A DNA stretch of 64,000 nt from the IMG/VR virus record IMGVR_UViG_3300042507_005574; one strand, written 5' to 3'. The position numbers were made by a program, and so were the translations under genes. The DNA is from a virus. Shown one piece after another: positions 7,249-26,969 of this stretch (positions are counted from its first letter, which is position 1; each line of letters starts with the position of its first letter). The notes under the pieces were generated by a model, which ran no database searches, had not been told where the DNA came from, and worked only from the letters and a program-made list of their open reading frames with translations.

Positions 7249-9435
7249 ATGTACGAAGATAAGTCTAAACAAATTTCTAATCTTGTAGCGGGAAGACTTC
7301 CTGAATTTGTTAGGGTCGATCATCCAACATTAGTTGCATTTCTTGAAACATATTATGAGTGGTTGCAAAAAAAAGAACGGGGCAAGCAAATTGTTAGCCC
7401 GATGCTTTTACAGGATATAATTGATGTAGATAAAAGTTTGGATGATTTTATCAGTCAATTCAAGAAAGAATATTTGTTCGATTTTCCCGAGCAGTTGGCT
7501 GTATCTAAAGAAACTGGAAATCCAGTTGATATCAGAAAACTAATTAAAAACATTAAATCATTTTATAGAGCAAAAGGTACAGAAAAGTCATACGAATTTT
7601 TGTTTAGAATTTTGTATGACACAGCAGTTGAATTTTATTATCCAAAGACCGATATTCTTCGGGTTTCTGATGGTAAGTGGTTACAGAAAACATCTATTAA
7701 AGTAACCAATACATTGAATGATCGTATATTTGAATCTATTGGTAGGATCATCTATCAGAAAAACGAATTAGGTCAGATAGTATCATCGGGGAAAGTCATT
7801 GATGTTTCGCTTTATCGTGAGGGGCAGAATGATGTCGCTGAATTAATAATTTCAGGCCGCAACGGCTCATTTACTCCTGGAAGCAAGGGTATAGATTTTA
7901 AAACTGAAAATGGAGAAACACTACATGAACTTAGAGTTTATGATGTGGTTGCATCTGTAACTATTTCGAACGGTGGATCTAACTACTCAGTTGGAGACAA
8001 AGTCTTTTTTACTTCTGCCGCAGGAGACAGCGGCGTTGGCGCACGGGGTTCTGTCTCACTTGTCGATGCCACAGGAAAAATTAGACGAATCAAAATTGAA
8101 AATTTTGGTATCAATTATCTCATCTCTCCAACAGTAAATGTGCAGTCTATTAGTGGTACGGGATTCGTTGGGGTTGCAAATACAGGAGCAATTTGTGAAT
8201 ATGAAGGGTACTACATAAATACTGATGGAAGAGTTAGTACCAATAAAGTCTTACAAGACAATCATTATTATCAAGATTATTCGTATGTTTTAAAAGCAGA
8301 AATTGTTATTGACGAATATCGTGAGTCAATCAGAAGACTTGTTCACCCTGCTGGTATGGCAATGTTTGGACAGGTTCTTATCAAACGCTGCGCCCGTGAA
8401 GATCTAGATCAATCATCCGCTTTAATTAAATTTGAAGTTCCTGTGATTGGTCACTACACACCGTACACATTCAATACATTTGACAACTTACCTGACTGGT
8501 TTTCTATTCCAGGAACAGGAGCATCATCGGGATATAATGTTCATGTTGGATACAATCCCGCCAAACACGACTCTTTAATACAAGCAATTGGTCTTTCGCC
8601 CGTTCCAAGACAAATCGGAAACCCAATAGCAAATATCATACCATTTGTTGAGGCTACAGGACCATCTTTTACTCCACTTGGTCTTACCGGTTACAAAACT
8701 GCCGATCCATTCTGGATCATTTATGAACATCCAAATAGGAAGATAAGCGACATAGTCATTGCACAAGTTTGGAAAAATCAAATAGATGATTTCACACAAT
8801 GGCCTGAGTGGACCACTATAACGGGTGGCTCTCCTCCTGTAGGTTGGACTGCGGATTTTTATGGTGCATCGGGAACCTCTGCTGTTAACAAGAAATATGC
8901 TCTACTGAAATATAACGAATTATCTGCTTTTAGAAAAATAACTGCAAGAGCATTTTTTAATATGCCGATTGGTAATGAATTTGATTGCAGAACAGAGGAT
9001 AGGATTAGATATGCGAAACCGATTGTTTCGTTGATATATCCACTAAACACACAAAGAGTTTTTACTCCTGGCAGATGTGAATTTAATGCTGGAATTTTGA
9101 TTAGTAACTATGAAAATTTACCTAGATTTGGTGTTACTTCAGCAAGTAAAATAAGATTCACACTTTCAGGGTCAAAGAATGAAGTTAAAGTTATCAACAT
9201 AAATGATAGAAACTGTTTGTTCCAGAATTTGACAGATGGTCCTTATTCATTGAAGGTTGAAGTTACCGATAGTAATGGGAAGGGAATACAAGGAATATCA
9301 GATACGGTGGTATTTGAGTTTTATTGTAGTGAACCAGTTTCACTTGGCGGTAGTGGCGGATCTGAGGATGCGGAAATTGACAGAATTATTTCTAGTATAT
9401 CTGGACAAGCACAAGATCCGCTCGGGTTCATTTAA
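7249..9435 (+). CDS. gp7: Baseplate wedge protein, gp7-like
   Basis: LPEFVR.DHP..V.FLE.YYEW, KSFYRAKGTEKSYEFLFRILY, LQDNHYYQDYSYV, LVHPAG..MFG; synteny gp6-X-gp8. Confidence 0.75.
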   Translation: MYEDKSKQISNLVAGRLPEFVRVDHPTLVAFLETYYEWLQKKERGKQIVSPMLLQDIIDVDKSLDDFISQFKKEYLFDFPEQLAVSKETGNPVDIRKLIKNIKSFYRAKGTEKSYEFLFRILYDTAVEFYYPKTDILRVSDGKWLQKTSIKVTNTLNDRIFESIGRIIYQKNELGQIVSSGKVIDVSLYREGQNDVAELIISGRNGSFTPGSKGIDFKTENGETLHELRVYDVVASVTISNGGSNYSVGDKVFFTSAAGDSGVGARGSVSLVDATGKIRRIKIENFGINYLISPTVNVQSISGTGFVGVANTGAICEYEGYYINTDGRVSTNKVLQDNHYYQDYSYVLKAEIVIDEYRESIRRLVHPAGMAMFGQVLIKRCAREDLDQSSALIKFEVPVIGHYTPYTFNTFDNLPDWFSIPGTGASSGYNVHVGYNPAKHDSLIQAIGLSPVPRQIGNPIANIIPFVEATGPSFTPLGLTGYKTADPFWIIYEHPNRKISDIVIAQVWKNQIDDFTQWPEWTTITGGSPPVGWTADFYGASGTSAVNKKYALLKYNELSAFRKITARAFFNMPIGNEFDCRTEDRIRYAKPIVSLIYPLNTQRVFTPGRCEFNAGILISNYENLPRFGVTSASKIRFTLSGSKNEVKVININDRNCLFQNLTDGPYSLKVEVTDSNGKGIQGISDTVVFEFYCSEPVSLGGSGGSEDAEIDRIISSISGQAQDPLGFI

Positions 9436-9446
9436 AGGAACACCAA

Positions 9447-10286: not shown

Positions 10287-10341
10287 CTCTAAACAAATAC
10301 TCGTACCAATAACAATCAAAGTTTTAACTCAAATTTGCTTT

Positions 10342-10348
10342 CTAAATA
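10342..10348 (+). promoter_or_regulatory. T4-type late promoter motif CTAAATA
   Basis: Intergenic, 9 nt upstream of the gp8 ATG; motif recurs before many structural genes. Confidence 0.7.
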
Positions 10349-10357
10349 GGAATAGCC

Positions 10358-12694
10358 ATGCCAAGTTGCGACCCATTTCGTCAAAACCACAGACGCTTCA
10401 TAGCAGATACTATATTGGATGAATATAGTGATTTATCCGATGAGAATTTTTTTCTCTGTATTGGAAAGGTAACCCCTTGGGGAATAACAGGATCTGATTT
10501 TCCCCCACAGTCAGTAGATTCCGTTCAAGATGAGACAAACTTTTGGCGGAATCTTATAGCAGCAAAAAGAATAAACAAATCTGATTGTTCTATGCTTGTT
10601 AGACGAATAGATTGGAATCCAGGAGAGATATATCAACCATATAGAAATGACATAGATTTATTTGATGATGTTGAGCCTGCTAGGTTTTATGTCTTGGTAG
10701 ACGAAGAGAGGGTTTATGTTTGTGTAGATAATAATCTTGGAAATCCCTCTACAGTTCCTCCAACTCACACGGACACGATTGTTCGTAAGTTGTCCGATGG
10801 GTATAGATGGAAGTTTCTCTATCAAGTACCTGAAAGCAAAAGAAAGTTTTTGACAAAATCTCGGACTGGAGCATTAGGTTATATTCCAGTTGAATTTGTA
10901 GAATTTCTTCGTGTAAATGATGATAGATTTTTGCAATGGGAAGTTCAAAATTCAGCAGTTGATGGCAAGATTGAATTTGCTTATATGGATGAAGCAGCAA
11001 AAGCATATTGGGTTAGTACATTATCATGCATACTTCCATCCAGTGCAAATTTAGTAACCTTGAACGCTGCTCCCGGTGCAACTACAGTTTATATTGCTGC
11101 TCCTGAGTTAACTCCTAATTCCGCTCTTTATAATGATATGATTATTTCATTTGACGGTGGACCCGGACAGGGACAGAGAAGACAGATTAAAGATTATACA
11201 TGGCAGGGAACTTCCGCAAAAATTTTTATAGATCCTTTAGTTTTAGGTTTATCCGGTACATCCGATCCCAACAAACAATCATATTTTAGCATTCAACCGA
11301 GAATTACAGTCAGAGGTGATGGTAAAGCATATGAAAACATCAATAACCCTGACATAAAAACTGCCGATTTTCAAATCAAATTTGGGGAGACTGCAAACAC
11401 AGACTTGGAATGTAGTGTTGTGTCACCAAGATATATTAAAAGTATTGAGATTGTAGATGGTGGAAAGAACTACACATTTGCCGAACTTGATATCCCTAAA
11501 GGATTAACTACATTAGTTTCTAACACACCATTTGAATATACAGATCTGAAAAAAGTTTTACACGCAGTTATACCGCCCCCCGGAGGTCATGGTGCTAATC
11601 CTCTCCGTGAACTTGGTGCAGCATCATTCATGATTGTTAAAAATTATGAAAGAGATGAAGACGGCAAAGTAGATACTGACAATGATTTTAGACAATTTGG
11701 TATTCTAAGAAATCCCATTTTGAGTGAGAAGCAAGTCAGAATTAAATTCAATCAGGCTGGCCTCAGCGGTTCGTTCACTGTTGGTGCAACTGCAATGCAG
11801 ATGACTGGTGCGTATGGTGCGCCTTATGGTAAGGTAGTCGAGTGGTGTCCTGGATATTCAGGTGTAACGGCGACTAGTGAATTAGTTCTTACGAATATTC
11901 GTGGGGGCACATTTGCTGCGGGTGCTACAATGTCAGGACTTACCATTTTCGATGTTGTTACGAAAACTGTTGCTGGCTCTGAGGCGAGGCACTTATTAAA
12001 TCTAACTCTGACACCTGAAAATGTAGAATTTTTATCTGTCGGTGGTGACTATAAGAGAAAGCATTTTGCACATGGGGTTGGAGATAGAAGGGTAAATATT
12101 CCACAGTCGAGAGCCTCCGGTGAAATTTGCAGTTGGCTTGCGTCTGGAGGAACACTTCTATATGGAACCTTGAAACTGGAAAATCCCAAAGGGAAATTCT
12201 ACATCGGTGAAACAGTTCTTCAGACAGAACCATATTTCTCGGGATCTAATGGATCTACGGGCCAAGGTAAAATTTATGCAATTGACACAGAAGTTTGCTG
12301 TTCACCCGCAACATACGATTTAACCACTTCTTTAACACTTTATGGTGAGGGTTTCGAAAACGATACTTTCTATAAAGATTCTTTTGTCTCTTTCCTGACA
12401 GGATCAACAGAGGGTAATGGATATATTGTTGATTGGAATCCCGTTACCGGAGGAACAAGTGGTGTTCTTCGTCTTGCAGGGGTTCAGGGTGATATAGTTA
12501 AAGGTCAATTAATCGATTACACCACTTTAGGGGCATCAGGAACTACCGTTACCATAAGTGGGTCAGTTCTTTCGGTGGATCACTCGGGAGAACTTAAATA
12601 TAGGTCTGGAGAAGTGCTATACATACAGAATATCAAACCTATACAAAGGGATTTGGAGCAGAGGGAAGAAATCAAACTTGTCATCGATTTCTAA
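10358..12694 (+). CDS. gp8: Baseplate wedge gp8 (long form)
   Basis: RRIDWNPG..Y..Y, FYVL..E.RVYVC.DN, DGYRWKFLY, PPGGHGANPLRELG, DNDFRQFGILRNP, SGEVLYIQN..PI.R..Q.EEIKLVI.F. Confidence 0.9.
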   Translation: MPSCDPFRQNHRRFIADTILDEYSDLSDENFFLCIGKVTPWGITGSDFPPQSVDSVQDETNFWRNLIAAKRINKSDCSMLVRRIDWNPGEIYQPYRNDIDLFDDVEPARFYVLVDEERVYVCVDNNLGNPSTVPPTHTDTIVRKLSDGYRWKFLYQVPESKRKFLTKSRTGALGYIPVEFVEFLRVNDDRFLQWEVQNSAVDGKIEFAYMDEAAKAYWVSTLSCILPSSANLVTLNAAPGATTVYIAAPELTPNSALYNDMIISFDGGPGQGQRRQIKDYTWQGTSAKIFIDPLVLGLSGTSDPNKQSYFSIQPRITVRGDGKAYENINNPDIKTADFQIKFGETANTDLECSVVSPRYIKSIEIVDGGKNYTFAELDIPKGLTTLVSNTPFEYTDLKKVLHAVIPPPGGHGANPLRELGAASFMIVKNYERDEDGKVDTDNDFRQFGILRNPILSEKQVRIKFNQAGLSGSFTVGATAMQMTGAYGAPYGKVVEWCPGYSGVTATSELVLTNIRGGTFAAGATMSGLTIFDVVTKTVAGSEARHLLNLTLTPENVEFLSVGGDYKRKHFAHGVGDRRVNIPQSRASGEICSWLASGGTLLYGTLKLENPKGKFYIGETVLQTEPYFSGSNGSTGQGKIYAIDTEVCCSPATYDLTTSLTLYGEGFENDTFYKDSFVSFLTGSTEGNGYIVDWNPVTGGTSGVLRLAGVQGDIVKGQLIDYTTLGASGTTVTISGSVLSVDHSGELKYRSGEVLYIQNIKPIQRDLEQREEIKLVIDF

Positions 12695-12709: not shown

Positions 12710-15700
12710 ATGCCATCATATATTCCAGAACTATTCAATACTGACCCTTATTACGATGATTTTAGCGAGAGCAAAAAGTTTCTTCGTATTATGTTTAGAC
12801 CAGGATTTGGTGTTCAAGGTCGTGAACTAACCCAACTTCAAACAATCTTACAGAATCAGATTGAAAGATTCGGTAATCATGTCTTCGAAGAAGGGAGCAT
12901 GGTTTTAGATGGTAAGATAACAGTTAATAGTTTGAGATTTGCCCGTGTTTCGGGGCTGTCGGGAACAAATGATGTTTCTGATTTTCTCGGTACGATAATT
13001 TCTGCTGGAGGCAAGGCTAAGGCTAAAATTGTTCATACTGAGAATGGGTACACGGCATCATCGATTGACAATATTCCAGTAGTATTTTTTGAATACTTAG
13101 AAGGCGGAACCGCTTTTGCTTGGGGCGATTACATTGGCGGAACGGCAGGAAATGGAACATATGTTGTCGCTAGCATTACAGGAGCAACATCAGGAGTTGT
13201 TCCTCCAACCGGAACGGCATTAGTTGTTTCTGTAGATAGCGGAGTTCGCTTCACAGAAGGATTTTTTGTACTGAATGATGCACAGTCTATCGGTGCTTAT
13301 TCGCTTTCTGGTTCTGCTGGGTCTCAAGTTAGAATGTACGGATCGCCTACGACAAGAGTCGGTTTAAATGTCGTAAAGGGATTTGTTCAAGCGGAAGAAG
13401 ATACATCGCTAAATGACCCCGCATTTGGATCTTACAATTACAACGCACCAGGCGCAGATAGATTCAAAATTGATCTCAATATAGTTCAATATGGATTTAC
13501 TGCGGCAAATACAAGTGCAACTGACAACTTCTCACGAAAAGACTTCATAGAATTTTTACGATTAGTTAATGGGAGTCCAATTAAGATAGAGAAGTATCCT
13601 GATTACGCTGTTCTAGAGGATACATTAGCAAGAAGAACATATGACGAGTCTGGAAACTATACAGTTCGTCCATTTGAACTGAACATGGTAGATGGACCTG
13701 GCATCAGCGGTGATGGTGCTACCGCAAATCTTTTTGCAGATTTAGAACCAGGAAAAGCATATATTTTTGGATATGAGTTTGAAACTCAAGGAATAACAAG
13801 ACTTCCTATCAATACAGCCAGAGATGCTGCACATGTCAGAACAATAACTGACAAATATTTCAATAGATCTTTAGGTCCATATTGCAGAGTTCAATTTACA
13901 AATATTGCAAGTTCTTTGACTGGAATTGCATTTGATGACGAGCAACTTGTCTATCTTGGTAGAGGCATTTCAGGTGCTGCAAGAGATCAGATAGGCACAG
14001 CAAGATTGCGTTGGATAGAACCTTATAGTGTTGCCAATAGTGTCTATAATTTACATCTTTTCAATGTTGAAATGTCTGGAACCGCATCGTTTGACGATGT
14101 GACTAGAATTCATCACGCATCTTCGGGGACAGCACATGCATTTTCAGTTACTGGAAATGATGGTTTAATCAACCTACAGAATAGTAATCTTCTGTTTGAA
14201 TATCCAACGGGAACAAGAGGTAAAACAGTAACTGATGCTAATTATTCAATCGCAGGCTTCTTTGAAGTGACACTAGGGGCAGGAAACTTCCCCTCCGTCG
14301 GATCAAATGGTTCAAGAGGTGTTGTCAACATCACTGATTACACTGCAAGTGCGACTGATGTTGCATTCTCTGTTCCACAAGACTATACGGTTTTGCCAGA
14401 TGAAGATGTCATGGCATTCACTAGAAGTGGATTGCCAATTGGTGGGACTGCCTACAGAAGAAATGACCAAGAACTTGATCTGACTTTAACGGGACCAGGA
14501 GTTATATCTGGAGAAAAGGTGTATATCGTAACATCAATCGATGTCCGTGCGCTTGATTACCCTGATCTTCGTAGAAATAAGACTGTCGTAACCGAAAATA
14601 TTGGATTTACTGCTGCTGGCGGATTTACTGGAATATTTTCTGGATTAACAACAGATCAATACAATAACAGTGTTCTGTATCTTGCAGGAAAAGTGGATGT
14701 TTTTGATATCATATCTGTTACAGGAGTCAAAGACACAACAACACAACTAAAGCAATACTTCACATTTGACAATGGACAAAGAGATAATTTGTATGATTGG
14801 TCTAGACTGAGTTTATTGGCGGGAGTCACTGGAGTTACAGGTCCATTCCAAGCAACGATAAAGAGATATGAGAGATCTGGAAATCGTGGACCATTCATAG
14901 TTGATTCCTATCCTTCTCCATACTCTGATATTCCAAAATATTCTAGTAGAACAACTGGAAAGATATATGATCTAGCAGATGTGATCGACTTTAGACCTGA
15001 TCGTGGTTCAAGTGGTAATGTCGTTGGTTATCCTTGGTTCCCAATCAATACTGCTGCAAACGATCAACTTTTCTCGTATCAACACTATCTTCCAAGAACA
15101 GACAAAATTGTTTTGAATAGAGATAGAACATTCTCAGTAATTAGTGGAGTTCCGAGTCTTGATGCTCAATCTCCACCTGATGATCCGAATGCAATGACAC
15201 TCTACTCAGTTACGGTGAATCCATATACATTCGATAAGAAAGATGTGTCTATTAGATTCGTGGAAAATAAGCGTTACACGATGCGTGATATCGGTGAACT
15301 GGAAAAGAGAATAGAAGCAGTAGAATACTATACAACATTGACGCTTCTTGAACAAGAGGCAAAATCCATATCGATTGTCGATGACAGCAATATTGAAATT
15401 CCTAAGAAGGGTATTTTAGTCGATCAATTCAAGGGACACAATATTGGTGATGTCACCAACTCAATGTATGCTGCATCTGTAGATTTTGAGAAGAATGAAC
15501 TTCGTCCTCCATTTGTTTCTCGGGTTTTTGCGCTCACGGGGCCATCAGAAATCTCAGGACTGACAACTTCGGGTGACGGAATCGTGACTTTGAACTATAC
15601 GACACAGGCAGAAATAGTTCAGCCTCTCACTACAAGAACATATACAATTAACCCATCAAATGTTTTCAATTACCTTGGCTCTCTGATGCTGTCTCCTTCT

Positions 15701-17659: not shown

Positions 17660-17853
17660 AAGTACCCGTTAAAAATAACAAAATGGTTCGGGATACAAAA
17701 ACCAATGCCATTCTCTCAGTCGATATTGATGCCATTAAGGCATACGAAGAGAAGAGAAGAAAGATTCAGACCGAAAGAGATAGACTAAATAGGCTAGAAC
17801 TAGAGGTATTGGAACTTCGTTCCATCATAGATCAATTAAGGAATAAGCCATAA
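17656..17853 (+). CDS. Small coiled-coil protein typically following VrlC-like genes
   Basis: RDTKTNAIL...Y...RL..LE.EV.ELR pattern; ATGA/TAATG coupling with neighbours. Confidence 0.75.
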   Translation: MKVPVKNNKMVRDTKTNAILSVDIDAIKAYEEKRRKIQTERDRLNRLELEVLELRSIIDQLRNKP

Positions 17854-20800
17854 TGTCCTGCACATGTACCGGCAACTGCGACCTAATTAATATTTCAAAT
17901 TTAGTCCTATCGGACACATTTCATACATGGTACGATAGAACAAATGAGATAATTGATGCTATAAATCCACTACAAATCTATGATGTTAATGTTGGGCAAA
18001 CTGATGGTGGTTTGACTTTAAATTCAACTTGCGTGAATGGTGACACAAACGGTGTCATTACTTTGAAAGTATGGCCTGGACCCGGAATTGGTGTCGGTAC
18101 AACATTAACTCCAAATTACTATCTAAACCACACGATGATAGATGTGTCAAACATGTTGACACTCGGCGTGACGGGTTTCTCAGATGCGATTGTAGCAAAT
18201 AGATCACTAACATCATTCCCGAACATAAACGACTGGTTTATAGTCAGTGATACTCTTGATAATAGACTTGGTTCGGGTGCAGGAACTCCTAAGAGAATTA
18301 GCGCACAGCACATTCTGCCCCCAACTGTCTATTTGCCTCCTGGATTTCAATTCAATGGTAATGTCAGTATAAATGGAAATTTGAGTGTTCAAGGTACTGC
18401 ATCAAATGTCGATTCAAATGATCTTCGTATAGAAGATAAAGTAATTGAACTTGCATACCATAGAATCGTTGCTATCGATGTCACTGGTCCAACATATGGG
18501 GGATTCCCCGCACAAGGTGCTACCTTCTATTATTATGATCCTGGAGTGACTAATCCAACTGATTACACCACTAGTGGTCAAGTTAGTGAAGTAAATTTCT
18601 ATCCATCGTTTACAACACTAAAATTACATAACTTTGTTTTTGGTGGAGTAAATGATATTGTATCGGGAGGCAGTATCAGCATCACGGGAACTGTTCTTGA
18701 TTTCTCAATGATTGCTGGACCAACTACTACTGAAAATTTCTATGGTGATATTGAGTTGGATGAAGCGGGGATAAGAGTTCGTGGTTCGGATAGTGATAAA
18801 CACTTCATATGGGTTTATGAGCAAGGACCATATCAAGAAGTAGTGAATACATTCATGGCAGACACCAATCTTGGTGTCAGCGGCACAGATTTACACATTT
18901 ATTCTTCAAGATTTAAGGCATTTGGTTACTACGACCCAGATGTTGCGGCTTACAAAGATGATTATAATGATAAGTTCCATTTCATCGGCCATGAAGGAGC
19001 AAATACTTCAATAAGACTCGGTGGATTGGGTACAGGAGGATCTTTAGATGCTCCGTATGGATATTGGGGTATTACAAGATATAACTACGGTTCTACGGGT
19101 TCACAGCAGCCTCTTGTATTCTCTTTCAAACAGAGTTTAAATCACGGGGAACAAGACAAATTCACGATTTGGTCGGGAGCATCGGGTCCACAATATCCTT
19201 ACATCACAGGACCAACGGGACAAAGTGATAATGCAATAGACCATTTTGCACAAAGACTGAATGTCGATTTCTTAGATGGTGCACACGGCACTACGATGCC
19301 AACGCCATTCAGCATTCCTGTTGCAAGAGCAAGTGGAACGATTGATCCAGGCTGGATTGACTTCGATAATTCATCAATCGGTAAGTGTTACTCTGTAACT
19401 GCTCATAGTTTTGTAATTGGTGATGTTGTAAGACTTGATCCGGATAATTTAACAATAACTGGTGCGATTGCAACGAGTCCTGAAAATGCAGAAGTATTGG
19501 GTATCGTTAGTAGAGTTGTGAATGCTAATAATTTCTGTGTTACGACTAAAGGATACATATCAGGTCTTACTGGTACTGCATCTTCAAGAATCGCATCGAT
19601 TCTTCCATTGGCACCCGGAAATGCATACTTTTTGAGTGCAGACAATGTTCGTGGAATGATTGCTGATCCTGATGGTGGGGCAAGTCAACTCCAACTTGGT
19701 GAAATTCGTAAGCCACTTATAGTTGCACTCGGTCCAGATAGTGCCTATGTTCACAATTATCTTGGTGCTGTATTTGGTGGAATTCCAAGTGGAGGCGGTG
19801 CAGGCGCAACAGGAACGCTGAGTGATGTTGTTGATATTCAAGGTCTGATGCCGGTAGGGATCATACAGCCTTTTAGTGGAGAAATTGAATATATTCCATC
19901 AGGGTGGTTGCTATGTGATGGTAGAAGACTCGAAAAATCATTGTGGACAGAACTGCATACCGCTATTGGGCAGAAGTTCTATGCTGATGGGACATTGAAT
20001 AGTTCTTATAACCCTAATGTTGGGGGTAATGTTCCGATAGATATTGCAGGATGGAATCGTGGACTTTTAGTGAATGATGCAGTTACTGTCGAGGCAACTG
20101 TAGGTGGAGTCCTGAGAGAATCGGACACATTTGTTACATCTGTAAATGGAACAACTGTAAGTTTTGACGAAAACACATTTGCATATGAAACTTTCAATGG
20201 AGCAACTTCGTTTAGAATTAGAGGTAGACTAAAGACTCCATCTGAAAGTTATACAAGCGTTTTCTTTATTCCCGACTTACGCCGTAGAATTCTTGTTGGT
20301 GCAACTAAAGGTCTGACAGGTTCCCTTACACCGAGTATTTCTGTCGGTGATATTGGTGGAACGAATCAAGTTACTCTGTCTGCTGCAAATATTCCACCGC
20401 ATGAGCATAGACTAACATCTGCATCTATCAATACTGGTTTAGACGCTGAAATCGGAGTTGGTTTTGGTCAACCAACTTCGGACAGTACTGTTGATACTTA
20501 CTTTACTGCCCGTGGCCCTCTAGGGGTAAGTACAGCACAGCCATTCGATAACATGCAAGAGTATGTTACTGTTCATTGGATTATTCGTGCACAGAAGGGT
20601 CTTAGTGCAATTATCCTTACAGGACATAATCATGATGATCGTTATGTTCGCTACGATAGTTCACAGACAGTCACATCCTCACAAAGAAATACATTTAGAT
20701 CAAATGCACATGTTTTGAGTGATGGATCTGACGGTGGGGCAACATTCGCAAATAGACTCACCATAACAGGTGGTGCCGTCATAGGTGACAATGGTTCTTC

Positions 20801-21953
20801 ACTATTGATTGTTCGATCAGGAGCCTCATTTGGCGGCGGTGCGACATTTAATGATGTCAGTATAGTGAAATATCCGTTCTCATCGGGTGGGTTGACTCAC
20901 AAGGGAGTCATCAGTTCTGACAATATCAGTAACTATACAAGATGGTCTATTCGTGGAAATCCATATTCTGAAGCATCAAATGGATATGGTGATCTTCTAG
21001 TTGAAAGTGGTTGGTCTGGTTCTTCTTGGAACACACTTTCAACTGTTATTGCACCTATGAGTCAGGCTGCGATTAAAGTTCGTGGCGGAACCATTGGTAC
21101 TTCTTCCATTGCAATTTTCAATGACAACGCTCTTGGTGCAACTAATGATGCTTGCTCTCTTTTAATGTATGGGAAGGGAACTGCATCTGACGATGTAAAT
21201 GAGGTAAAGTTCTCCTCTGGAATTAGAGGCAGAATTGATCGTGCAGAAACTTCAAGTACGATTACTAGGAAATTTAGTATTGTTCTTGGTGGTGGATCTT
21301 CGCCAAATGCCGCAGAAGATGTTTTCACTTTCACAAGAAAGGATAGTACACCTGCAACTGTTGACATTAACATTCCTAAGGGACTTGCTACTATAACTAG
21401 CCCGTCATCTTATGTTGTTCTTGATTCAAATAACAATTTGAAGAAAGTTACCACAGTAGTAAGTGCACCAAATATACCAGGAGCCTCTAATACGCTGACA
21501 GGTGCTGCATCATTTGACAGTAGACATTTCCAAATCGGTTCTACGGGACATGTGGTCAGTAAGATTACGGTTAATGGGCAAATTCCTGATAGTGATGGAA
21601 ATATTACTATTGATATACCAACACCAACAACATCATTTGGTGTTAAGGCACACGGTTCATATCAATTAAATGGGAGTACTATTAGTACGATAGTATCGGG
21701 GAATCTTTCATTCAGTATACCTACTGGTGGTCAAATTGGAAGAGTGCGATGTACATTCACCACGCCTATGACTAATACTAATTACACTGTAGTTGTAACT
21801 CCTCTCCGTCCGGCTAATTGGGGATCTTCACAAATTGTTAATTCAGCCATGGGAGTTTGGCAAGGATCTAAGACAATAACTCATTTTGATTTGATTGCAG
21901 ATTCAACTTTTAGTCCAGGACCAAATTCATCCGAAGTGGTGGTTATAGGATAA
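17853..21953 (+). CDS. Tail fibre protein with tail-collar domain
   Basis: LSDTFHTWYDRTN N-terminus, IEDKVIELA, DFLDGAH, MPVGII.PF.G..IPSGWLLCDG...FFIPDLR...WIIRA collar, C-terminal FTTPMTNTNYTVV. Confidence 0.8.
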   Translation: MSCTCTGNCDLINISNLVLSDTFHTWYDRTNEIIDAINPLQIYDVNVGQTDGGLTLNSTCVNGDTNGVITLKVWPGPGIGVGTTLTPNYYLNHTMIDVSNMLTLGVTGFSDAIVANRSLTSFPNINDWFIVSDTLDNRLGSGAGTPKRISAQHILPPTVYLPPGFQFNGNVSINGNLSVQGTASNVDSNDLRIEDKVIELAYHRIVAIDVTGPTYGGFPAQGATFYYYDPGVTNPTDYTTSGQVSEVNFYPSFTTLKLHNFVFGGVNDIVSGGSISITGTVLDFSMIAGPTTTENFYGDIELDEAGIRVRGSDSDKHFIWVYEQGPYQEVVNTFMADTNLGVSGTDLHIYSSRFKAFGYYDPDVAAYKDDYNDKFHFIGHEGANTSIRLGGLGTGGSLDAPYGYWGITRYNYGSTGSQQPLVFSFKQSLNHGEQDKFTIWSGASGPQYPYITGPTGQSDNAIDHFAQRLNVDFLDGAHGTTMPTPFSIPVARASGTIDPGWIDFDNSSIGKCYSVTAHSFVIGDVVRLDPDNLTITGAIATSPENAEVLGIVSRVVNANNFCVTTKGYISGLTGTASSRIASILPLAPGNAYFLSADNVRGMIADPDGGASQLQLGEIRKPLIVALGPDSAYVHNYLGAVFGGIPSGGGAGATGTLSDVVDIQGLMPVGIIQPFSGEIEYIPSGWLLCDGRRLEKSLWTELHTAIGQKFYADGTLNSSYNPNVGGNVPIDIAGWNRGLLVNDAVTVEATVGGVLRESDTFVTSVNGTTVSFDENTFAYETFNGATSFRIRGRLKTPSESYTSVFFIPDLRRRILVGATKGLTGSLTPSISVGDIGGTNQVTLSAANIPPHEHRLTSASINTGLDAEIGVGFGQPTSDSTVDTYFTARGPLGVSTAQPFDNMQEYVTVHWIIRAQKGLSAIILTGHNHDDRYVRYDSSQTVTSSQRNTFRSNAHVLSDGSDGGATFANRLTITGGAVIGDNGSSLLIVRSGASFGGGATFNDVSIVKYPFSSGGLTHKGVISSDNISNYTRWSIRGNPYSEASNGYGDLLVESGWSGSSWNTLSTVIAPMSQAAIKVRGGTIGTSSIAIFNDNALGATNDACSLLMYGKGTASDDVNEVKFSSGIRGRIDRAETSSTITRKFSIVLGGGSSPNAAEDVFTFTRKDSTPATVDINIPKGLATITSPSSYVVLDSNNNLKKVTTVVSAPNIPGASNTLTGAASFDSRHFQIGSTGHVVSKITVNGQIPDSDGNITIDIPTPTTSFGVKAHGSYQLNGSTISTIVSGNLSFSIPTGGQIGRVRCTFTTPMTNTNYTVVVTPLRPANWGSSQIVNSAMGVWQGSKTITHFDLIADSTFSPGPNSSEVVVIG

Positions 21954-21956
21954 GTT

Positions 21957-22298
21957 ATGGCAATATCGATCAACAGAGACATGGATCAAGGATCAGACTT
22001 TTCTTTCTCTTATATTGTAAGAGGAAGTGACGGGTCTCCCACGGACATTTCAATAGGTTATACAGCATATTCACAGATGCGTAGATTTTACTCGTCAACA
22101 ACGGGAGTCAATTTAACCACATCAATAACAGGATCTACGGGCAATATTATAGTTTCTATGTCAGCAACAAATACTGCAAACATAAAGGCAGGAGTTTGGT
22201 TTTATGATGTGGAATTACATTCGAATGGCAGTGAAAATGTCCAAAGAGTAGTTCAAGGAATGATAACTGTTTATCCAGAAATTACGAAAATTTCTTGA
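21957..22298 (+). CDS. Small virion structural protein (BppU N-terminal-like fold)
   Basis: DQGSDF, GYTAYSQMRR, T.NIKAG.W.YDVE..RVVQG.ITV.P. Confidence 0.7.
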   Translation: MAISINRDMDQGSDFSFSYIVRGSDGSPTDISIGYTAYSQMRRFYSSTTGVNLTTSITGSTGNIIVSMSATNTANIKAGVWFYDVELHSNGSENVQRVVQGMITVYPEITKIS

Positions 22299-22326: not shown

Positions 22327-22333
22327 CTAAATA
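22327..22333 (+). promoter_or_regulatory. Late promoter motif CTAAATA upstream of glycosyltransferase
   Basis: Intergenic; same motif as before structural genes. Confidence 0.7.
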
Positions 22334-22366
22334 GTTCAGACTCAACAGTTCATAATGGAGATTAAA

Positions 22367-23563
22367 ATGGCTGAAACAGCGATTCTTGAGCCTACGATTC
22401 AAAACACGCAAACTAAGACGAATAAGAGCGGAATTCCTACGGTCAACCTTTGCATGATTGTAAAGGACGAGGCACATGTCATCGAAAGATGTCTTGCTTC
22501 CGTTCTTCCTGTGATCGATTATTGGGTTATTGTTGATACAGGTTCAACTGACGGAACGCAGCAAAGAATTAAGGATTTCTTTGATCGAAATGGCATCCCC
22601 GGTGAACTACACCAAAGCACTTGGACAGATTTCGGAACGAATAGAAGCGAGGCTCTAGAGTACGCCCAAAAGACAGGGCACGACTATAGCCTCATGATTG
22701 ATGCAGACGAGATTCTTGTTTTCGATCCTGGCTTTGATCCACAGACTTTCAAGAAGGGTCTAACTGCTGATCTCTACAATGTGTTTGCAATGTTTGGACA
22801 GACTAAGTACCATCGTCCACAATTGACAAGCAATCACAAGAAATTCTACTACCGTGGAATTCTTCATGAGTATGTTGATTGCCATGATCAGATCTCAACT
22901 AGAGATTTTGCCCGTGGATTTATCAATACTCCAATTCAAGATGGTAATAGATCTAAATCTGCTGATAAGTATGAGAAAGATGCAAGAGTATTTGAGGCAG
23001 CACTTGAATCAGGTAAGGTCGATGAGAAGGATCTAAACCGATATCATTTCTATCTTGCTCAGTCATACCGTGATTCGCAGCAGTGGGAAAAGTCACTTTC
23101 TGCATACTTGAAGAGAGCAGAACTTGGTGGTTGGAATGAAGAAGTTTTCTACTCGTACTATCAGGCGGGTAGAATCATGGAAATTCTCAACAAGTCATTC
23201 GATGAAATCGTCAAGACATATTTCCAAGCCTACCAGGCTGCCCCTTGGAGAGCAGAGAGCCTATGGGCTGCTGCTAGACTCTGTCGGACATACTGCCGCT
23301 GGGATCAGGCTTATCGCTTCGCCAAGCAGGCATTAAAGATTCGATATCCTGAAGGTGCTTTGTTTGTTGGTCAAGGTATCTACGAGTGGGCAATCCTTGA
23401 TGAATTTGCTATTTCATCATATTGGACTGAGCATTATCGTGAATCTCGTCTAGCATCAATGCAACTTTTAAATGATGGTAAGTTCCCGCAAGACCAGAAA
23501 GAAAGAATTGAAGCAAACCTCAAGTTCGCCACGGAGGCTCTGTTAACAGAGCCAAATGGGTGA
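22367..23563 (+). CDS. Family-2 glycosyltransferase with C-terminal TPR repeats
   Basis: LCMIVKDE..VIERCL.S, VIVDTGSTDGT, DF..NR..AL, DxD motif IDADE, YRG.LHE, FYLAQSY helical repeats; GGAG RBS favours ATG 22367. Confidence 0.92.
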   Translation: MAETAILEPTIQNTQTKTNKSGIPTVNLCMIVKDEAHVIERCLASVLPVIDYWVIVDTGSTDGTQQRIKDFFDRNGIPGELHQSTWTDFGTNRSEALEYAQKTGHDYSLMIDADEILVFDPGFDPQTFKKGLTADLYNVFAMFGQTKYHRPQLTSNHKKFYYRGILHEYVDCHDQISTRDFARGFINTPIQDGNRSKSADKYEKDARVFEAALESGKVDEKDLNRYHFYLAQSYRDSQQWEKSLSAYLKRAELGGWNEEVFYSYYQAGRIMEILNKSFDEIVKTYFQAYQAAPWRAESLWAAARLCRTYCRWDQAYRFAKQALKIRYPEGALFVGQGIYEWAILDEFAISSYWTEHYRESRLASMQLLNDGKFPQDQKERIEANLKFATEALLTEPNG

Positions 23564-23597: not shown

Positions 23598-23621
23598 GTC
23601 AAGTTACATAAGGACTAACGG

Positions 23622-26600
23622 ATGGCATTTAGCGCACTACCAATTCAAGGGGGCGGATCCAGTGACGGACGCTCCATCAGAAACACTATCACGCAAGTCG
23701 GCCACTCCTTTCAGCCAGGAATGGTTGTCAGGCGTGATAGTGCTACTGGTTTATATGTTGTTGCCAGAGCAAATACTATAGCAAACTCAAACTCATGCGG
23801 TATAGTTGAGTCTGTTACTGCAAACACATTTGTTCTTGTTTACCAGGGAGAAATGGATTTTGGTTCTGCTACAATATCAATTGATGACGGTTCGACTAGT
23901 TTAACAAATGGTTTTGTGTACTATCTTTCACCTGGTAGTGGTACACAGGGCTATCTGACACCTACTGCACCTACTGATCAGTCAGCAATTTATCATCCTC
24001 TTTTTGTAGCAACTGCAAATAAAAACGGATTAGTAATTAATGCATTACCTAGACCAGGTGGTGGCGGTGGAGAAGGATCTTCTCTTTTCACACCTGTCGG
24101 CTCTATAATTTCTTGGGGCGGCAAGGCAAATGAAGTTCCTCAAAATTGGATGTTGTGTGCTGGTGATGCACTAGGCAAGAGCGAATATTCTACGCTTTAT
24201 AGCAAGATAGGCGATTCATATAAGATAATTGGTTTGGAAAATGCAATTTCAACTGGAGTAACGGCTAATGATAGACTCAGTTTGAAGTTCATTGAGGAAC
24301 TTGAAGATAAACCAGCAGCGGGTCCGGGAAGCAGTAATATACACAATATTGTTGTCGGATCAAAATATAAACTGAGTTGGAATGCAGATGACAGCATTGT
24401 TGTTGCAGATGTTGTTGCCATTGATGACCCCAATAAAACTGTTACATTTAGATATATCAATGACCATCCAGATACTACAACCGCTCACACATCAACTCGT
24501 TTTGGTGATTTGAGCGGTGGAGTCGTATCAACAATTACAGTTCAATCTCTAGCACATGGAGAAGTGACTGGAATTACTAGTGACTATTTCTTCGTTCCTG
24601 ATCTTCGTGCTAGAACCATATTCGGAGTAGGATCAAGTGTTGGATTGACTTCAACGGGATTTAGTCGTGGTGACATTGCAGGATCTCAAACGCATCTTCT
24701 TACAGAAGATGAAATGCCGAGTCACTCACACGACAGTAAAGTCACCTCTACTACCACATCAGCAGGATCATACTATTTAAATGTTGCCGCAGGACAACCC
24801 ACACAAGCCGCTACATTCCAATCAACTTTAGCATCTTCAGAAGTAACAGGTAGTGATGATGCGTTTAGCATCTTGCCACCTTATGTTTCTTGTAATTGGA
24901 TTATTCGTTGGAAAAATCCTGGCGGGATTTTGATAGATGAATGTCTTCCTGGTCCAACCGGTCCAATGGGAAATACAGGTAATACTGGCCCAACAGGACC
25001 GCCCGGCCCTCCAGGACCGGGTGGCGGCGGTGGACCTCCTGGTCCTCCTGGTGAAAATGGCAGCAATGGTCCTCCTGGTCCTCCAGGTGAGGCATGTCCC
25101 TGCGAAGCAACAGAAGGGGCTTTCCTTGAGACATCAGTTTTCGTTGGAGAAAACACGATTTATGATGGCAGCAGAATTCCTCCTGTAACATCTACTACAC
25201 TATCTCGTCTCTCGGGATCCGTTAATCATCCTACTAATTGGAATTATTTTACAGATAGACTAACGAACAACAACACACCCTTCTCTCAATTCTTCAATGG
25301 GGTTCAGCATTTCAATGAAATCAATCCGCAAGAACCTGCTGACCTAACACAACTTGAAAGTTCATATAGATCTGTTTTCGCTATGCCAACTCGGTATCAG
25401 GAAAGAGATATAAGTAGCACAACCAATTTAATACTGGTTGAGGAAAGAAAAGACGAAAACTCAAAGCAAATGAATTTCGTCTTCTTGCCCGGTGTCTATG
25501 AGATGGACAAACCCTTCTCAGTATTCGGGACGAGAAAAATAGCAATTGGCGGTGGGCCTGGATCCGTTGTTGAAATCCCGATAAGTCAAGTTGGAATTGA
25601 TTATGCTTATTCTGCCACAGGTGCTACGGAAAACAATCGTTTCTACTTGAAGTGTCTTGCTAGTACAACCGGACACGCAAACCCATTAGTTGCAACGGGA
25701 AATTATGCACTCATTGAAGGTAGACACTTGAGATTCACAAATGTTGTTCCTTTAGGTTACACTGCGGGAACTTCGGTTGGTGGATACACCGGAGCATCGG
25801 GAGCAACATTCGGTTTCTTGACTTCTTTACTTGGTTCTTATCCTTGCGTTCTCAATGGATGGGCTACAGGGGGATCGAAGAATTCAAGTTTCACCCTTGA
25901 AGTTCCACACAATCCTGTCACTGTGATTGCAACAACTGGTGCTTCACTTCCTCCACTTGGAGTTCCTTATGGGGCAACATTTGGTACAGGTGCAGGACAA
26001 GCATCTGGATTGTCAGCAATGACAATCATGAAAACCATTTTCCATGTGAATAATGATAATGGATTCTTGGTTGCAGATAGAAACACAAATGTTTATATCG
26101 GTGGTGGATCAGATACTTTCAATCTCCAACCAATCATGATTGTAAATATTGCGGACCCTGACACAAATGTTGAAGGGAATAGTAAAATAACATCTAATTC
26201 AGTTGGAATTCAGTCCGCAGGTAATGTGTTTATTGCTGACAGAGTGGGGATTTATGGGTTCCCGACAGCGGTTCATATAACTGATACCGGAAGAGCAGTT
26301 ATAAACAAAGCATCTTTTGTAGGTAATTATTCTGCTATTGCATCTGATGGTGGATCTTTATCTGTGAAGGGAGCAATCGTAAATAGAAACGAATTTGGTG
26401 TTTCACTTGCATCGGGAGCAAAAGCAGAAATAAAGGATAGTACTGTTTTTGCTAGAAATGGTGTAGCAATAGTTGCGAATAGTTCAAGAGTATTCTTAGA
26501 TGATCCGTCTAAAGATAGTGCTGCCATTATTCGTTCTTCGCCTGCTCTTGTTGCCTTCAACTCAAGTATTAGAGTTGGAAACATAGTTGCTGATGCACCA

Positions 26601-26969
26601 GTTTCTTGGTTAGGGGCATCGGGACACTCAGGAGGCACAGCACAAGTTTCGGGATCAGGAACATTGCGTCCGAATGAGCCTGGAGTTTCACCGAAAGATT
26701 ATGCGATATTTGCCTCTGGATGTGATTTCACATATCACGATCCGAGTCTTTACGGAGGGAAATCTCAGATCCCAACAATCTCTGCGGTCGCATCGGATAT
26801 TTCTGTTAAAGCAACATCAAGGGATGTTGCCGCCGCAACCATAATTTCTCAAAGGTCTTTCATTAATTTTGACTCAAGTAGTGTGAACACTACGAGTGCT
26901 AGATCCGGACCAAAGAGTACAACTAATATATTCTCAGATAAGTCAACATATTCTCCACCTAAGGTTTAA
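23622..26969 (+). CDS. Tail fibre/spike with collar domain, collagen-like segment and C-terminal beta-helix-like region
   Basis: [20 protein letters not shown]...FFVPDLR...WIIR; GPT/GPP triplets; C-terminal ~21-aa repeats with GN/RN..AI/GV. Confidence 0.8.
24951..25091 (+). repeat. Collagen-like Gly-X-Y repeat within tail fibre
   Basis: [47 protein letters not shown]. Confidence 0.9.

What the first reader, a model, noticed from the sequence alone, without database searches (positions are those of the whole stretch)
7249..26969. Putative sequon-directed virion glycosylation system: pervasive G-x-[T/S]-[G/A] motifs in exterior virion proteins plus a late GT2-TPR glycosyltransferase and Gmd
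Seen: unrelated exterior proteins are studded with the same short motif. Examples are gp7-like (EATGP, GLTG, GASG), gp8 (GITG, GLSG, GATA, GYSGVTA, GSTG, GTSG, GASG), VrlC-like (GLSG, ITGATSG, GFTA, GISG, GFTG, GVTGVTG, GATA), fibre 1 (GVTG, GVSG, GSTG, GASG, ITGPTG, GATG, GLTG), 21957 (GYTA, ITGSTG), fibre 2 ([29 protein letters not shown]), sheath (GATG, GATA), 39361 (GVTG, GITG, GATA) and a capsid loop (GSGSTG). By eye the motif is rare in terminase, portal, protease and scaffold. A GT2 (DADE) + TPR enzyme sits between the two fibres behind its own late promoter, and gmd supplies GDP-deoxyhexose precursor. Established: GT2-TPR enzymes glycosylate Ser/Thr of proteins such as flagellins, and virion glycosylation has been shown in some mycobacteriophages. 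Inference: the phage has seeded an acceptor sequon across its surface proteins to build a glycan coat.
Basis: partly seen in the sequence, partly recalled or inferred. Interest (0 to 1): 0.85.

Follow-up and report, generated by a model that had tools for sequence, protein, structure and literature searches.

The report
Candidate phage virion O-glycosylation sequon
An uncultured T4-like aquatic phage has about three to four times too many Gly-x-Thr/Ser-Gly/Ala sites in its outward-facing particle proteins and carries, inside its tail-fibre operon, an enzyme of the type that adds sugars to exactly such sites, so the particle is probably sugar-coated at a defined motif, although no chemistry has shown this.

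Summary
G-x-[ST]-[GA] occurs 67-70 times in the exterior virion proteins against 20-25 expected (z 9-12). The excess survives local shuffles, removal of collagen-like runs and removal of paralogous segments. Interior and non-virion proteins show none (4 vs 4.4).

The motif is sharply defined. G.T[GA] is enriched 4.4x, but G.T[^GA] and [^G].T[GA] are not. Thr is preferred over Ser, and Val, Ala, Asn or Cys in its place give nothing.

The GT-less phages T4, HTVC008M, Melnitz and a 90%-complete relative show no excess. More than 100 GT-bearing uncultured relatives do, at sites that turn over while density is kept.

The enzyme (22355-23563) is a GT2 with an invariant DxD and a TPR-like domain. Its nearest solved or characterised relatives are all protein glycosyltransferases: GmaR, SunS, ThuS and C. 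difficile SgtA, which O-GlcNAcylates Thr of Gly-Pro-Thr repeats. Bacterial homologues and the one in jumbo phage Tunturi_5 lie beside (G-x-T)n collagen-like genes.

A Gmd link is not supported.

Verdict: probable sequon-directed virion O-glycosylation, a new variant of a known kind, unproven chemically. The scan had already noted the same system on other DNA of this clade.

The parts
22355..23563 (+). GT2 (GT-A, DxD = D116-A-D118) plus a C-terminal TPR-like helical domain; the putative protein O-glycosyltransferase
   Evidence: Pfam PF00535 at 35 bits against a cutoff of 23.3. Invariant DTGSTDGT and D116/D118/E119. PDB sequence hits to GmaR 7.8e-14, SunS 6.4e-10, ThuS 6.4e-07 and a designed TPR over residues 233-329. 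AF2 model with pLDDT 84.6 showing a GT-A core at 30-193 and ten helices at 203-398. Top Foldseek hits are full-length SunS and ThuS. SgtA is 27% identical with E 3e-20.
22327..22333 (+). CTAAATA late-promoter-like element 28 nt upstream of the GT start
   Evidence: There are 8 copies on the + strand and none on the - strand. Seven of them lie 13-68 nt upstream of late structural genes.
23622..26969 (+). Tail fibre 2, immediately downstream of the GT; 12 motif sites
   Evidence: Collar, Collagen and Gp10_C Pfam hits. 12 sites against 5.2 expected. Homologous fibres in 57 relatives have 753 against 260.
24948..25091 (+). Collagen-like G-x-Y segment of fibre 2 (aa 443-490, [19 protein letters not shown]...), the classical SgtA-type acceptor context
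   Evidence: Pfam Collagen hit at 443-490. Motif sites at 444, 450, 453 and 456.
7249..9435 (+). gp7-like baseplate wedge protein, 6 motif sites
   Evidence: 6 against 1.15 expected, z 4.5. Matches to PHROG and Pfam baseplate wedge families.
10358..12694 (+). gp8-like baseplate wedge protein, 11 motif sites
   Evidence: 11 against 1.54 expected, z 7.9. Pfam Phage-Gp8 and phrog_438.
12710..17659 (+). DUF4815/VrlC-like large virion protein, 15 motif sites
   Evidence: 15 against 3.6 expected, z 6.2. PF16075 at 5e-58.
17853..21953 (+). Tail fibre 1, 11 motif sites
   Evidence: 11 against 5.6 expected. Collar and Gp10_C hits.
21957..22298 (+). LtfC-like small fibre or assembly protein, 2 motif sites
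   Evidence: 2 against 0.31 expected. phrog_1084 and phrog_3304. Homologues in relatives have 84 against 12.
33757..35523 (+). Tail sheath, 4 motif sites in the variable middle region
   Evidence: 4 against 1.08 expected. The sites align to T4 gp18 at about residues 228-354 and are not conserved among relatives.
39361..39789 (+). Small Gly/Thr-rich head-module protein of unknown family, 3 motif sites
   Evidence: 3 against 0.91 expected. No family hit.
41658..43025 (+). Major capsid protein, 6 motif sites, including a G/S/T-rich loop at aa 126-135
   Evidence: 6 against 1.1 expected, z 4.8. GPTG at aa 96 is ancestral, since HTVC008M and Melnitz also have it; the loop sites are lineage-specific.
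46994..48019 (-). GDP-mannose 4,6-dehydratase (Gmd); its membership of the system is doubtful
   Evidence: PF16363 at 1.9e-121. Present in 4 of 5 long GT-bearing contigs but also in GT-less cyanophages.

Best explanation
The phage expresses a cytoplasmic GT2-TPR protein O-glycosyltransferase late, together with its structural genes. The enzyme recognises the minimal unit of a Gly-x-Thr collagen-like repeat: G, then a hydrophobic or small residue, then T (less often S), then G or A. It transfers a sugar to the hydroxyl of the Thr or Ser. By analogy with characterised relatives the first sugar is probably a UDP-hexose or UDP-HexNAc from the host pool.

The lineage has accumulated this four-residue acceptor in the collagen-like segment of fibre 2 and, mostly as isolated copies, in the variable parts of its outward-facing virion proteins. 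These are the peripheral baseplate proteins, the VrlC-like protein, the fibres, the sheath and the capsid. The assembled particle would therefore carry a glycan coat.

Shown here: the motif excess and its exact definition; its restriction to exterior virion proteins; its presence only in GT-bearing genomes; turnover of positions with density kept; the enzyme's family and fold; and the family-wide genomic linkage to (G-x-T)n proteins.

Inferred: that the enzyme uses these sites, that scattered copies are used as well as collagen-like runs, the identity of the sugar, and the benefit to the phage (for example shielding from proteases, from non-productive adsorption or from grazers, or tuning of host binding).
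For: 1. Motif excess. 70 sites against 21-25 expected (z 9-11) under global and local shuffles; ten of the eleven permuted orderings give z < 4.2. It ranks top in an unbiased scan. With classes set in advance, exterior proteins have 67 against 20.5 and interior proteins 4 against 4.4.
2. Hydroxyl-specific and three-position-specific. G.T[GA] is 4.4x in the window and 4.65x in distant clade members, and G.S[GA] is 2.4x and 1.3x. G.T[^GA] is 1.09x and [^G].T[GA] 1.05x. V, A, N or C in place of T give no excess. The x position is 6-7x enriched when hydrophobic and about 1x when charged.
3. Not DNA-level, since the codons are diverse. Not due to duplicated modules or collagen-like runs: 68 against 18.5 outside duplications, and only 4 sites in collagen-like runs.
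4. GT-less controls show no excess. Structural modules give HTVC008M 52/46.6, T4 14/16.8 and Melnitz 77/73.5. The GT is absent from those complete genomes, with positive controls ringing. G006, a 90%-complete relative, has no GT and 18/14.2.
5. GT-bearing relatives are enriched: fibre 2 753/260, VrlC 240/76, gp8 63/11, sheath 70/25, against terL 8/11 and tube 0/2.4. Distant GT-bearing loci give z 5-15. In a 98%-complete relative the excess is confined to the structural module and a fibre cluster, and is absent from 80-150 kb.
6. Site turnover. Sheaths carry 5.1 sites per sequence spread over 49 alignment columns in 21 sequences, with none shared by more than 50%.
7. The GT is on the same strand inside the fibre module in all 80 loci where it was sought. 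It is 62-93% identical where the neck protein gp13 is 51-57% identical. It sits behind a CTAAATA element.
8. Enzyme family. It matches GmaR, SunS and ThuS by sequence and fold, and SgtA at E 3e-20. SgtA adds beta-O-GlcNAc to Thr, and also Ser, of GPT repeats in vitro (PMC7157674).
9. Independent linkage. About 26-30 of 80 bacterial loci with full-length homologues, from several phyla, hold a collagen-like (G-x-T)n gene within about 6 kb. In jumbo phage Tunturi_5 the homologue lies 4 kb from a tail fibre with 66 G.T[GA] sites against 8.5 expected.
Against: - There is no chemical evidence of any glycan.
- All the enriched T4-like genomes form what may be a single clade, so the co-variation of GT and motif within T4-like phages may reflect one evolutionary event.
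- One fragment, L147 (7% complete), is enriched with no GT in the 10 kb seen.
- SgtA's known acceptors are collagen-like repeats, not isolated sites in folded proteins, and identity to SgtA is only 27%.
- The gp8-like fold was poor (pLDDT 47). In its usable part, 5 of 7 acceptor residues lie in loops against a coil fraction of 0.50, which is not significant. Exposure is therefore untested.
- One MCP site, GPTG at aa 96, is ancestral and also present in GT-less phages.
Confidence: 0.6

Rival explanations
1. The GT glycosylates only true collagen-like (G-x-T)n stretches of the tail fibres, such as fibre 2 aa 443-490, as SgtA does with BclA3. The isolated G-x-T-G/A copies elsewhere are poor acceptors or not acceptors at all, and their excess has another cause, for example remnants or seeds of collagen-like modules, or a shared loop preference in this lineage.
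For: Every characterised or genomically linked partner of this GT family is a repeat protein (PMC7157674). The GT sits directly upstream of the collagen-bearing fibre 2 in most loci. Exposure of the scattered sites is unproven.
Against: Only 4 of about 70 sites in this window lie in a collagen-like run. The scattered sites show the same three-position and Thr-specific definition. They occur in sheath and capsid proteins that contain no collagen-like run, and they turn over while density is kept. They are absent from GT-less phages, which also have collagen-like fibres.
Confidence: 0.2
2. The motif is a structural signature unrelated to glycosylation, such as a turn or loop preference or conserved fibre-module positions. 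The GT acts on something else, for example host envelope polysaccharide or a host surface protein, for superinfection exclusion.
For: In the usable part of the gp8-like model most sites fall between beta-strands. One MCP site is ancestral. GT2 enzymes often act on polysaccharides.
Against: The sites are not conserved in position and do not lie in duplicated modules. Residues that favour turns (N, D) or that resemble Thr in shape (V) are not enriched at the Thr position. T4, HTVC008M and Melnitz homologues lack the excess. The nearest relatives of the enzyme by sequence and fold are all protein or peptide glycosyltransferases with a TPR domain, not polysaccharide synthases.
Confidence: 0.12
3. 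The motif is read by another factor, such as a kinase, another modifying enzyme, a chaperone or a host protease or immune receptor. Its co-occurrence with the GT would then be a coincidence of clade membership.
For: Co-variation within the T4-like phages may rest on a single origin.
Against: The same GT family is independently linked to G-x-T repeat proteins in bacteria of several phyla and in an unrelated jumbo phage. No other candidate modifying enzyme was found in the window.
Confidence: 0.05

Closest known systems
Clostridioides difficile SgtA with BclA3 (exosporium collagen-like glycoprotein; PMC7157674)
   Same: The architecture is the same: a GT-A domain followed by TPR repeats. The two are homologous (27% identity over 251 aa, E 3e-20; hhalign 99.3%). 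In both cases the transferase gene lies directly upstream of a gene encoding collagen-like G-x-T repeats. The SgtA acceptor is Thr (Ser is tolerated) in G-P-T-G, which is an instance of the motif found here.
   Different: SgtA is a bacterial enzyme acting on one repeat protein of the spore surface. Here the enzyme is phage-encoded and late, and the motif is mostly scattered as single copies over about ten unrelated virion proteins. Identity is low, and the donor and activity are untested.
SunS / ThuS glycocin glycosyltransferases (PDB 7MSN, 7MSP, 7MSK) and Listeria GmaR (PDB 22AO)
   Same: These are the best sequence hits in the PDB (E 7.8e-14 to 6.4e-07). SunS and ThuS are also the best fold matches over the full length, at TM about 0.58. 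All are GT2-plus-TPR-type enzymes that glycosylate proteins or peptides in the cytoplasm.
   Different: Their acceptors are Cys, Ser or Thr in bacteriocin loops, or in flagellin, not G-x-T-G/A. None is known to act on virion proteins.
Virion glycosylation of mycobacteriophages (Freeman et al. 2023, Cell Host Microbe, cited in PMC12582341)
   Same: Phage-encoded glycosyltransferase genes sit among the structural genes, and the virion proteins are modified.
   Different: This is a different phage group and host. From my recollection of that paper, which is not held in the library, the glycans sit on C-terminal tails of capsid and tail-tube proteins and no short internal sequon was defined. Here a four-residue motif is dispersed across baseplate, fibre, sheath and capsid proteins, and nothing has been shown chemically.
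Tunturiibacter phage Tunturi_5 gp35 / gp29 (PP885688.1)
   Same: gp35 is a homologue of the GT (36% identity over 90% of its length). It lies 4 kb from the tail fibre gp29, which has 66 G.T[GA] sites against 8.5 expected. This phage is cultured, so the prediction can be tested on it.
   Different: It is a jumbo phage of Acidobacteria. The motif there occurs as long collagen-like runs in one fibre, and the neighbouring proteins are not enriched.

Membership tests
Glycosyltransferase family 2 (GT-A fold) | Match to the Pfam GT2 model above its curated cutoff | tested here: met
   PF00535 at 35 bits against a cutoff of 23.3; PF13704 at 32.4 against 27.5.
Glycosyltransferase family 2 (GT-A fold) | DxD metal/nucleotide-sugar motif and a Rossmann-like GT-A core | tested here: met
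   D116-A-D118-E119 and DTGSTDGT are invariant in 17 sequences. The AF2 model shows a GT-A core at 30-193 with pLDDT around 90.
GT2-TPR protein/peptide glycosyltransferases (SgtA, GmaR, SunS, ThuS) | Sequence homology to characterised members | tested here: met
   GmaR 7.8e-14, SunS 6.4e-10 and ThuS 6.4e-07. SgtA E 3e-20, hhalign probability 99.3%.
GT2-TPR protein/peptide glycosyltransferases (SgtA, GmaR, SunS, ThuS) | C-terminal TPR-like helical repeat domain fused to the GT-A domain | tested here: met
   Ten helices at 203-398. A designed TPR matches residues 233-329. Foldseek gives full-length SunS and ThuS as top hits, and TPR proteins including the OGT TPR domain lower in the list.
GT2-TPR protein/peptide glycosyltransferases (SgtA, GmaR, SunS, ThuS) | Transfers a sugar to Ser, Thr or Cys of a protein acceptor | not testable with these tools
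   This needs an enzyme assay or mass spectrometry.
SgtA-BclA3-type pairs (transferase plus G-x-T collagen-like acceptor) | Transferase gene adjacent to a gene encoding G-x-T collagen-like repeats | tested here: met
   Fibre 2, directly downstream, has a collagen-like run at aa 443-490. About 26-30 of 80 bacterial homologue loci, and Tunturi_5, show the same pairing.
Sequon-directed protein glycosylation | A short defined acceptor motif that is statistically over-represented in the target proteins and absent from non-targets | tested here: met
Sequon-directed protein glycosylation | The motif is occupied by glycan in the mature protein | not testable with these tools
   No virion material is available; glycoproteomics is required.
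Sequon-directed protein glycosylation | Motif sites are solvent-exposed | tested here: inconclusive
   The gp8-like model has pLDDT 47. In its usable part, 5 of 7 acceptor residues are in loops against a coil fraction of 0.50. The sheath sites align to T4 gp18 residues 228-354, which I recall as the protruding domains; that rests on memory only.
Phage virion glycosylation systems (mycobacteriophage type) | A phage-encoded GT within the late structural operon | tested here: met
   The GT is on the same strand inside the fibre module in 80 of 80 loci and has a CTAAATA element 28 nt upstream.
GDP-mannose 4,6-dehydratase (Gmd) | Match to the Gmd model | tested here: met
   PF16363 at 1.9e-121 over 11-320.
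Gmd as donor supplier for this GT | Specific co-occurrence with the GT, or a GDP-sugar donor preference of the GT | tested here: inconclusive
   Gmd is in 4 of 5 long GT-bearing contigs but also in GT-less cyanophages. SgtA accepted only UDP-GlcNAc among the donors tested (PMC7157674). No reductase or second GT was found in the window.

The most novel reading that the evidence does not exclude
A clade of T4-like aquatic phages uses a minimal, portable four-residue O-glycosylation sequon: G, then a hydrophobic or small residue, then T, then G or A. A single cytoplasmic GT2-TPR enzyme reads it. By gaining and losing this word in exposed loops, the phages continually rewrite where their capsid, sheath, baseplate and fibres carry sugar. 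This would be a genetically encoded and evolvable glycan coat on a tailed phage. The enzyme and tag pair could also serve as a simple glyco-tagging tool.
Probability: 0.45. Interest if true: 0.85.

Novelty: new variant of a known kind. Interest (0 to 1): 0.72.

Why it matters
Glycosylation of tailed-phage virions has been shown experimentally only for mycobacteriophages, and bacterial cytoplasmic O-glycosyltransferases rarely have a defined sequon. If this reading is right, an abundant clade of uncultured aquatic T4-like phages coats its particles with sugar at a four-residue motif. More than 6000 relatives of the enzyme exist in public protein data.

That would change how adsorption, decay, grazing and antigenicity of environmental phages are thought about. 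It would explain why these structural proteins are so Gly/Thr-rich. It would also supply a compact enzyme and tag pair for protein glyco-engineering.

The prediction can be tested directly on a cultured phage, Tunturi_5, and by co-expression in E. coli.

Tried and rejected
- DNA-level explanation (a repeated nucleotide word): rejected, because all synonymous codons are used.
- Composition or local low-complexity artefact: rejected by the 30-aa and 12-aa local shuffles and by the permuted motifs.
- A generic property of T4-like structural proteins: rejected by T4, HTVC008M and Melnitz.
- Duplicated fibre modules or collagen-like runs as the source: rejected for this window. There is one paralogous segment holding 4 sites, and 4 sites lie in a collagen-like run.
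- Canonical T4 late promoter TATAAATA: only one copy in the window, inside gmd and no more than chance would give. The CTAAATA variant is the element that shows a positional pattern.
- Megablast of the region against cultured phages: no match. The closest cultured relatives have an MCP about 62% identical.
- The window's own genome is not held, so a whole-genome search was impossible. A 98%-complete relative was used instead.
- Fold of the gp8-like protein: poor (pLDDT 47), so mapping of site exposure is inconclusive.
- Freeman et al. 2023 could not be read because it is not held.
- A literature search for SunS/ThuS was swamped by the common word 'thus'.
- Searches for papers on glycosylated collagen-like phage fibres found nothing relevant.
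- Other glyco-genes in the window: none found apart from Gmd.
- Complex prediction was not used, because an enzyme-substrate pair is a poor use of that test.
Full report
WHAT THE WINDOW IS

The window is the late structural module of an uncultured T4-like phage, followed by a block of minus-strand genes. The major capsid protein is about 62% identical to those of Pelagibacter phage HTVC008M and Methylophilales phage Melnitz. No cultured phage matches at DNA level. Gene order follows T4:
- hub, PAAR, gp25- and gp6-like genes, up to 7242
- gp7-like, 7249-9435
- an unassigned gene, 9447-10286
- gp8-like, 10358-12694
- DUF4815/VrlC-like, 12710-17659
- fibre 1, 17853-21953
- LtfC-like, 21957-22298
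- the glycosyltransferase, 22355-23563
- fibre 2, 23622-26969
- neck proteins gp13, gp14 and gp15, then terminase, sheath, tube, portal, protease, scaffold and MCP

Gmd lies at 46994-48019 on the minus strand.

Per protein, G.[ST][GA] exceeds composition shuffles in the gp7-like protein (6/1.15), gp8-like (11/1.54), VrlC (15/3.6), fibre 1 (11/5.6), fibre 2 (12/5.2), sheath (4/1.1) and MCP (6/1.1). Terminase, portal, tube, protease, scaffold, gp6, gp25 and the GT itself sit at or below expectation.

Pooled, the count is 70 against 21 to 25 expected under global, 30-aa local and 12-aa local shuffles (z 11.0, 10.5 and 9.2). Ten of the eleven other orderings of the same residue classes reach z 0.8-4.1; the eleventh, [GA].[ST]G, overlaps the motif. 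Exterior proteins then have 67 against 20.5 (z 10.6), and interior or non-virion proteins 4 against 4.4. In an unbiased scan of all three-residue gapped words, the top well-populated patterns are G.TA (20 vs 4.1), G.TG (25 vs 6.1) and GAT.

WHAT EXACTLY IS ENRICHED

All three positions are needed. G.T[GA] is 4.4x, whereas G.T[^GA] is 1.09x and [^G].T[GA] is 1.05x. Thr is preferred over Ser: 4.4x against 2.4x here, and 4.65x against 1.34x in distant clade members. Replacing Thr with Val, Ala, Asn or Cys gives no excess. The x position favours hydrophobic or small residues (6-7x and about 4x) and not charged ones. This dependence on a hydroxyl residue is what a modification site would show, and it is not what a turn or strand preference would show.

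The codons are diverse, so the signal is at protein level. Flanking positions are only weakly constrained. Only 4 sites lie in a collagen-like run. The only paralogous segment, fibre 1 aa 505-912 against fibre 2 aa 15-429, holds 4 sites. Outside duplications the count is 68 against 18.5.

COMPARATIVE CONTROLS

The structural modules of T4 (14/16.8), HTVC008M (52/46.6) and Melnitz (77/73.5) show no excess. A profile of the GT finds nothing in those complete genomes, while it does ring in positive controls. A 90%-complete relative, G006, also lacks the GT and has 18/14.2.

The GT itself has more than 6000 relatives in public protein data. In 80 of 80 IMG/VR loci it sits on the same strand inside the fibre module, just upstream of fibre 2 or of the neck gene gp13. 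In those loci the counts are fibre 2 753/260, VrlC 240/76, fibre 1 317/152, gp8 63/11 and sheath 70/25, against terL 8/11, tube 0/2.4 and GT 8/17. Loci anchored on gp13 show the same split. GT-bearing distant loci reach z 5-15, and loci with upstream sequence but no GT reach z < 1.5. The one exception is a 7%-complete fragment, L147.

In a 98%-complete GT-bearing relative, the G.T[GA] excess is confined to the structural module (30-70 kb) and to a cluster of collagen-like fibre and virion genes (150-177 kb). It is absent across 80-150 kb.

Site positions turn over. Sheaths carry 5.1 sites each, spread over 49 alignment columns in 21 sequences, and no column is shared by more than half of them. 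Density therefore appears to be what is maintained, not position.

A caveat applies. The enriched T4-like genomes may form one clade, so within T4-like phages this co-variation could be a single event.

THE ENZYME

The protein has an invariant DTGSTDGT and an invariant D116-A-D118-E119. The AF2 model (pLDDT 84.6) shows a GT-A core followed by ten helices. By sequence, the nearest solved structures are Listeria GmaR (7.8e-14), SunS (6.4e-10), ThuS (6.4e-07) and a designed TPR over residues 233-329. By fold, full-length SunS and ThuS lead, and TPR proteins including the OGT TPR domain also appear in the list. All of these relatives glycosylate proteins or peptides.

Following a lead from earlier scan notes, I recovered C. 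difficile sgtA through its published primer (PMC7157674). SgtA is homologous at 27% identity over 251 aa (E 3e-20; hhalign 99.3%). The paper shows that SgtA adds beta-O-GlcNAc from UDP-GlcNAc to Thr, and also Ser, of Gly-Pro-Thr collagen repeats of BclA3, whose gene lies directly downstream.

The GT is more conserved across the clade (62-93% identity) than the neck protein gp13 (51-57% in the same distant loci). A CTAAATA element lies 28 nt upstream of its start. That word occurs 8 times on the + strand and never on the - strand, and 7 of the 8 copies lie 13-68 nt upstream of late genes. This supports late expression.

INDEPENDENT LINKAGE OF THE FAMILY TO G-x-T

Among 80 bacterial loci with full-length homologues (32-45% identity), about 26-30 hold a collagen-like gene with G-x-T runs within about 6 kb, usually within 0-3 kb. 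These loci come from Alphaproteobacteria, Streptomyces, Polyangiaceae, Chlamydiae, Flavobacteria, Acidobacteria and Bacillus. Collagen-like genes are rare in bacterial genomes (general knowledge), so this rate is far above chance, although I ran no formal background control.

In the cultured jumbo phage Tunturi_5 the homologue gp35 lies 4 kb from tail fibre gp29. That fibre has 66 G.T[GA] sites against 8.5 expected, arranged as GATGATG and GPTGPTG runs. The neighbouring proteins are not enriched.

MECHANISM PROPOSED

A late cytoplasmic GT2-TPR enzyme O-glycosylates Thr, and less often Ser, in G-x-T/S-G/A. This is the minimal unit of its ancestral collagen-like acceptor. The lineage has spread that unit across variable regions of its exterior virion proteins. 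The steps shown and the steps inferred are separated in the Best explanation section.

The sheath sites align to T4 gp18 residues of about 228-354. I recall these as the protruding domains, but that rests on memory. Three of the MCP sites (aa 126-135) fall in a variable Gly-rich loop; the others are isolated, and GPTG at aa 96 is ancestral. The gp8-like fold was too poor to settle exposure.

THE Gmd CLAIM

Gmd is genuine, and strong Gmd matches occur in 4 of 5 long GT-bearing contigs. It is, however, about 23 kb away on the other strand and is common in GT-less cyanophages. SgtA accepted only UDP-GlcNAc among the donors tested (PMC7157674). No reductase or second GT is present in the window. 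The link is therefore unsupported; Gmd could equally serve glycan extension or changes to the host envelope.

NOVELTY AND VERDICT

Virion glycosylation is established for mycobacteriophages (Freeman et al. 2023, cited in PMC12582341), and SgtA-BclA3 is established in bacteria. I found no paper describing a dispersed G-x-T-G/A acceptor motif on T4-like virions. The scan has already noted this same system on other DNA of the clade. I rate it a new variant of a known kind, probable at about 0.6 but chemically unproven, and directly testable.

Noticed in passing
window 4524-43112, + strand (8 copies, e.g. 10342, 17785, 22327, 23591, 33709, 40453, 43106): CTAAATA occurs 8 times on the + strand and never on the - strand, and 7 copies lie 13-68 nt upstream of late structural genes. 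It looks like this lineage's version of the T4 late promoter. The canonical TATAAATA occurs only once, inside gmd.
   Followed up: partly
window 29158-31551: The gp15-like tail sheath stabiliser is 797 aa here, and 778-797 aa in the closest relatives L084-L086, against about 250-290 aa in most clade members. It therefore carries a C-terminal extension of about 520 aa of unknown function, with only one motif site.
   Followed up: no
window 57315-61422: This is a GC-rich island (0.52-0.55 against about 0.40 elsewhere). It holds an 837-aa protein matching phrog_459 'peptidase' (1e-155) on the minus strand and a divergently oriented AAA_5/CbbQ-type ATPase, a pairing that from memory resembles the CobS/CobT-like genes of marine T4-like phages.
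   Followed up: no
window 22355-22440 (GT residues 1-28): The N-terminus of the GT is a variable, disordered leader rich in Thr, Ala and Pro (pLDDT about 33). Its length differs widely among relatives, from 0 to about 50 residues.
   Followed up: no
L242 (Tunturi_5, PP885688.1) 19016-21137: In jumbo phage Tunturi_5 the GT homologue gp35 lies directly downstream of a gene annotated as a nucleotidyltransferase (gp36). It is also next to four paralogous genes of about 283 aa (gp30-33), which lie beside the collagen-like fibre gp29.
   Followed up: partly
L147 (IMGVR_UViG_3300046009_009308): This is a 15.5-kb fragment whose fibre proteins are motif-enriched (42/16.3). No GT is seen in the 10 kb upstream of gp13, so the GT may sit elsewhere in that genome, or this may be an exception to the GT-motif association.
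   Followed up: partly
L095, L121, L127, L133, L135: Several GT-bearing relatives carry two tandem sheath genes of about 590-620 aa each, and both copies are motif-enriched.
   Followed up: no
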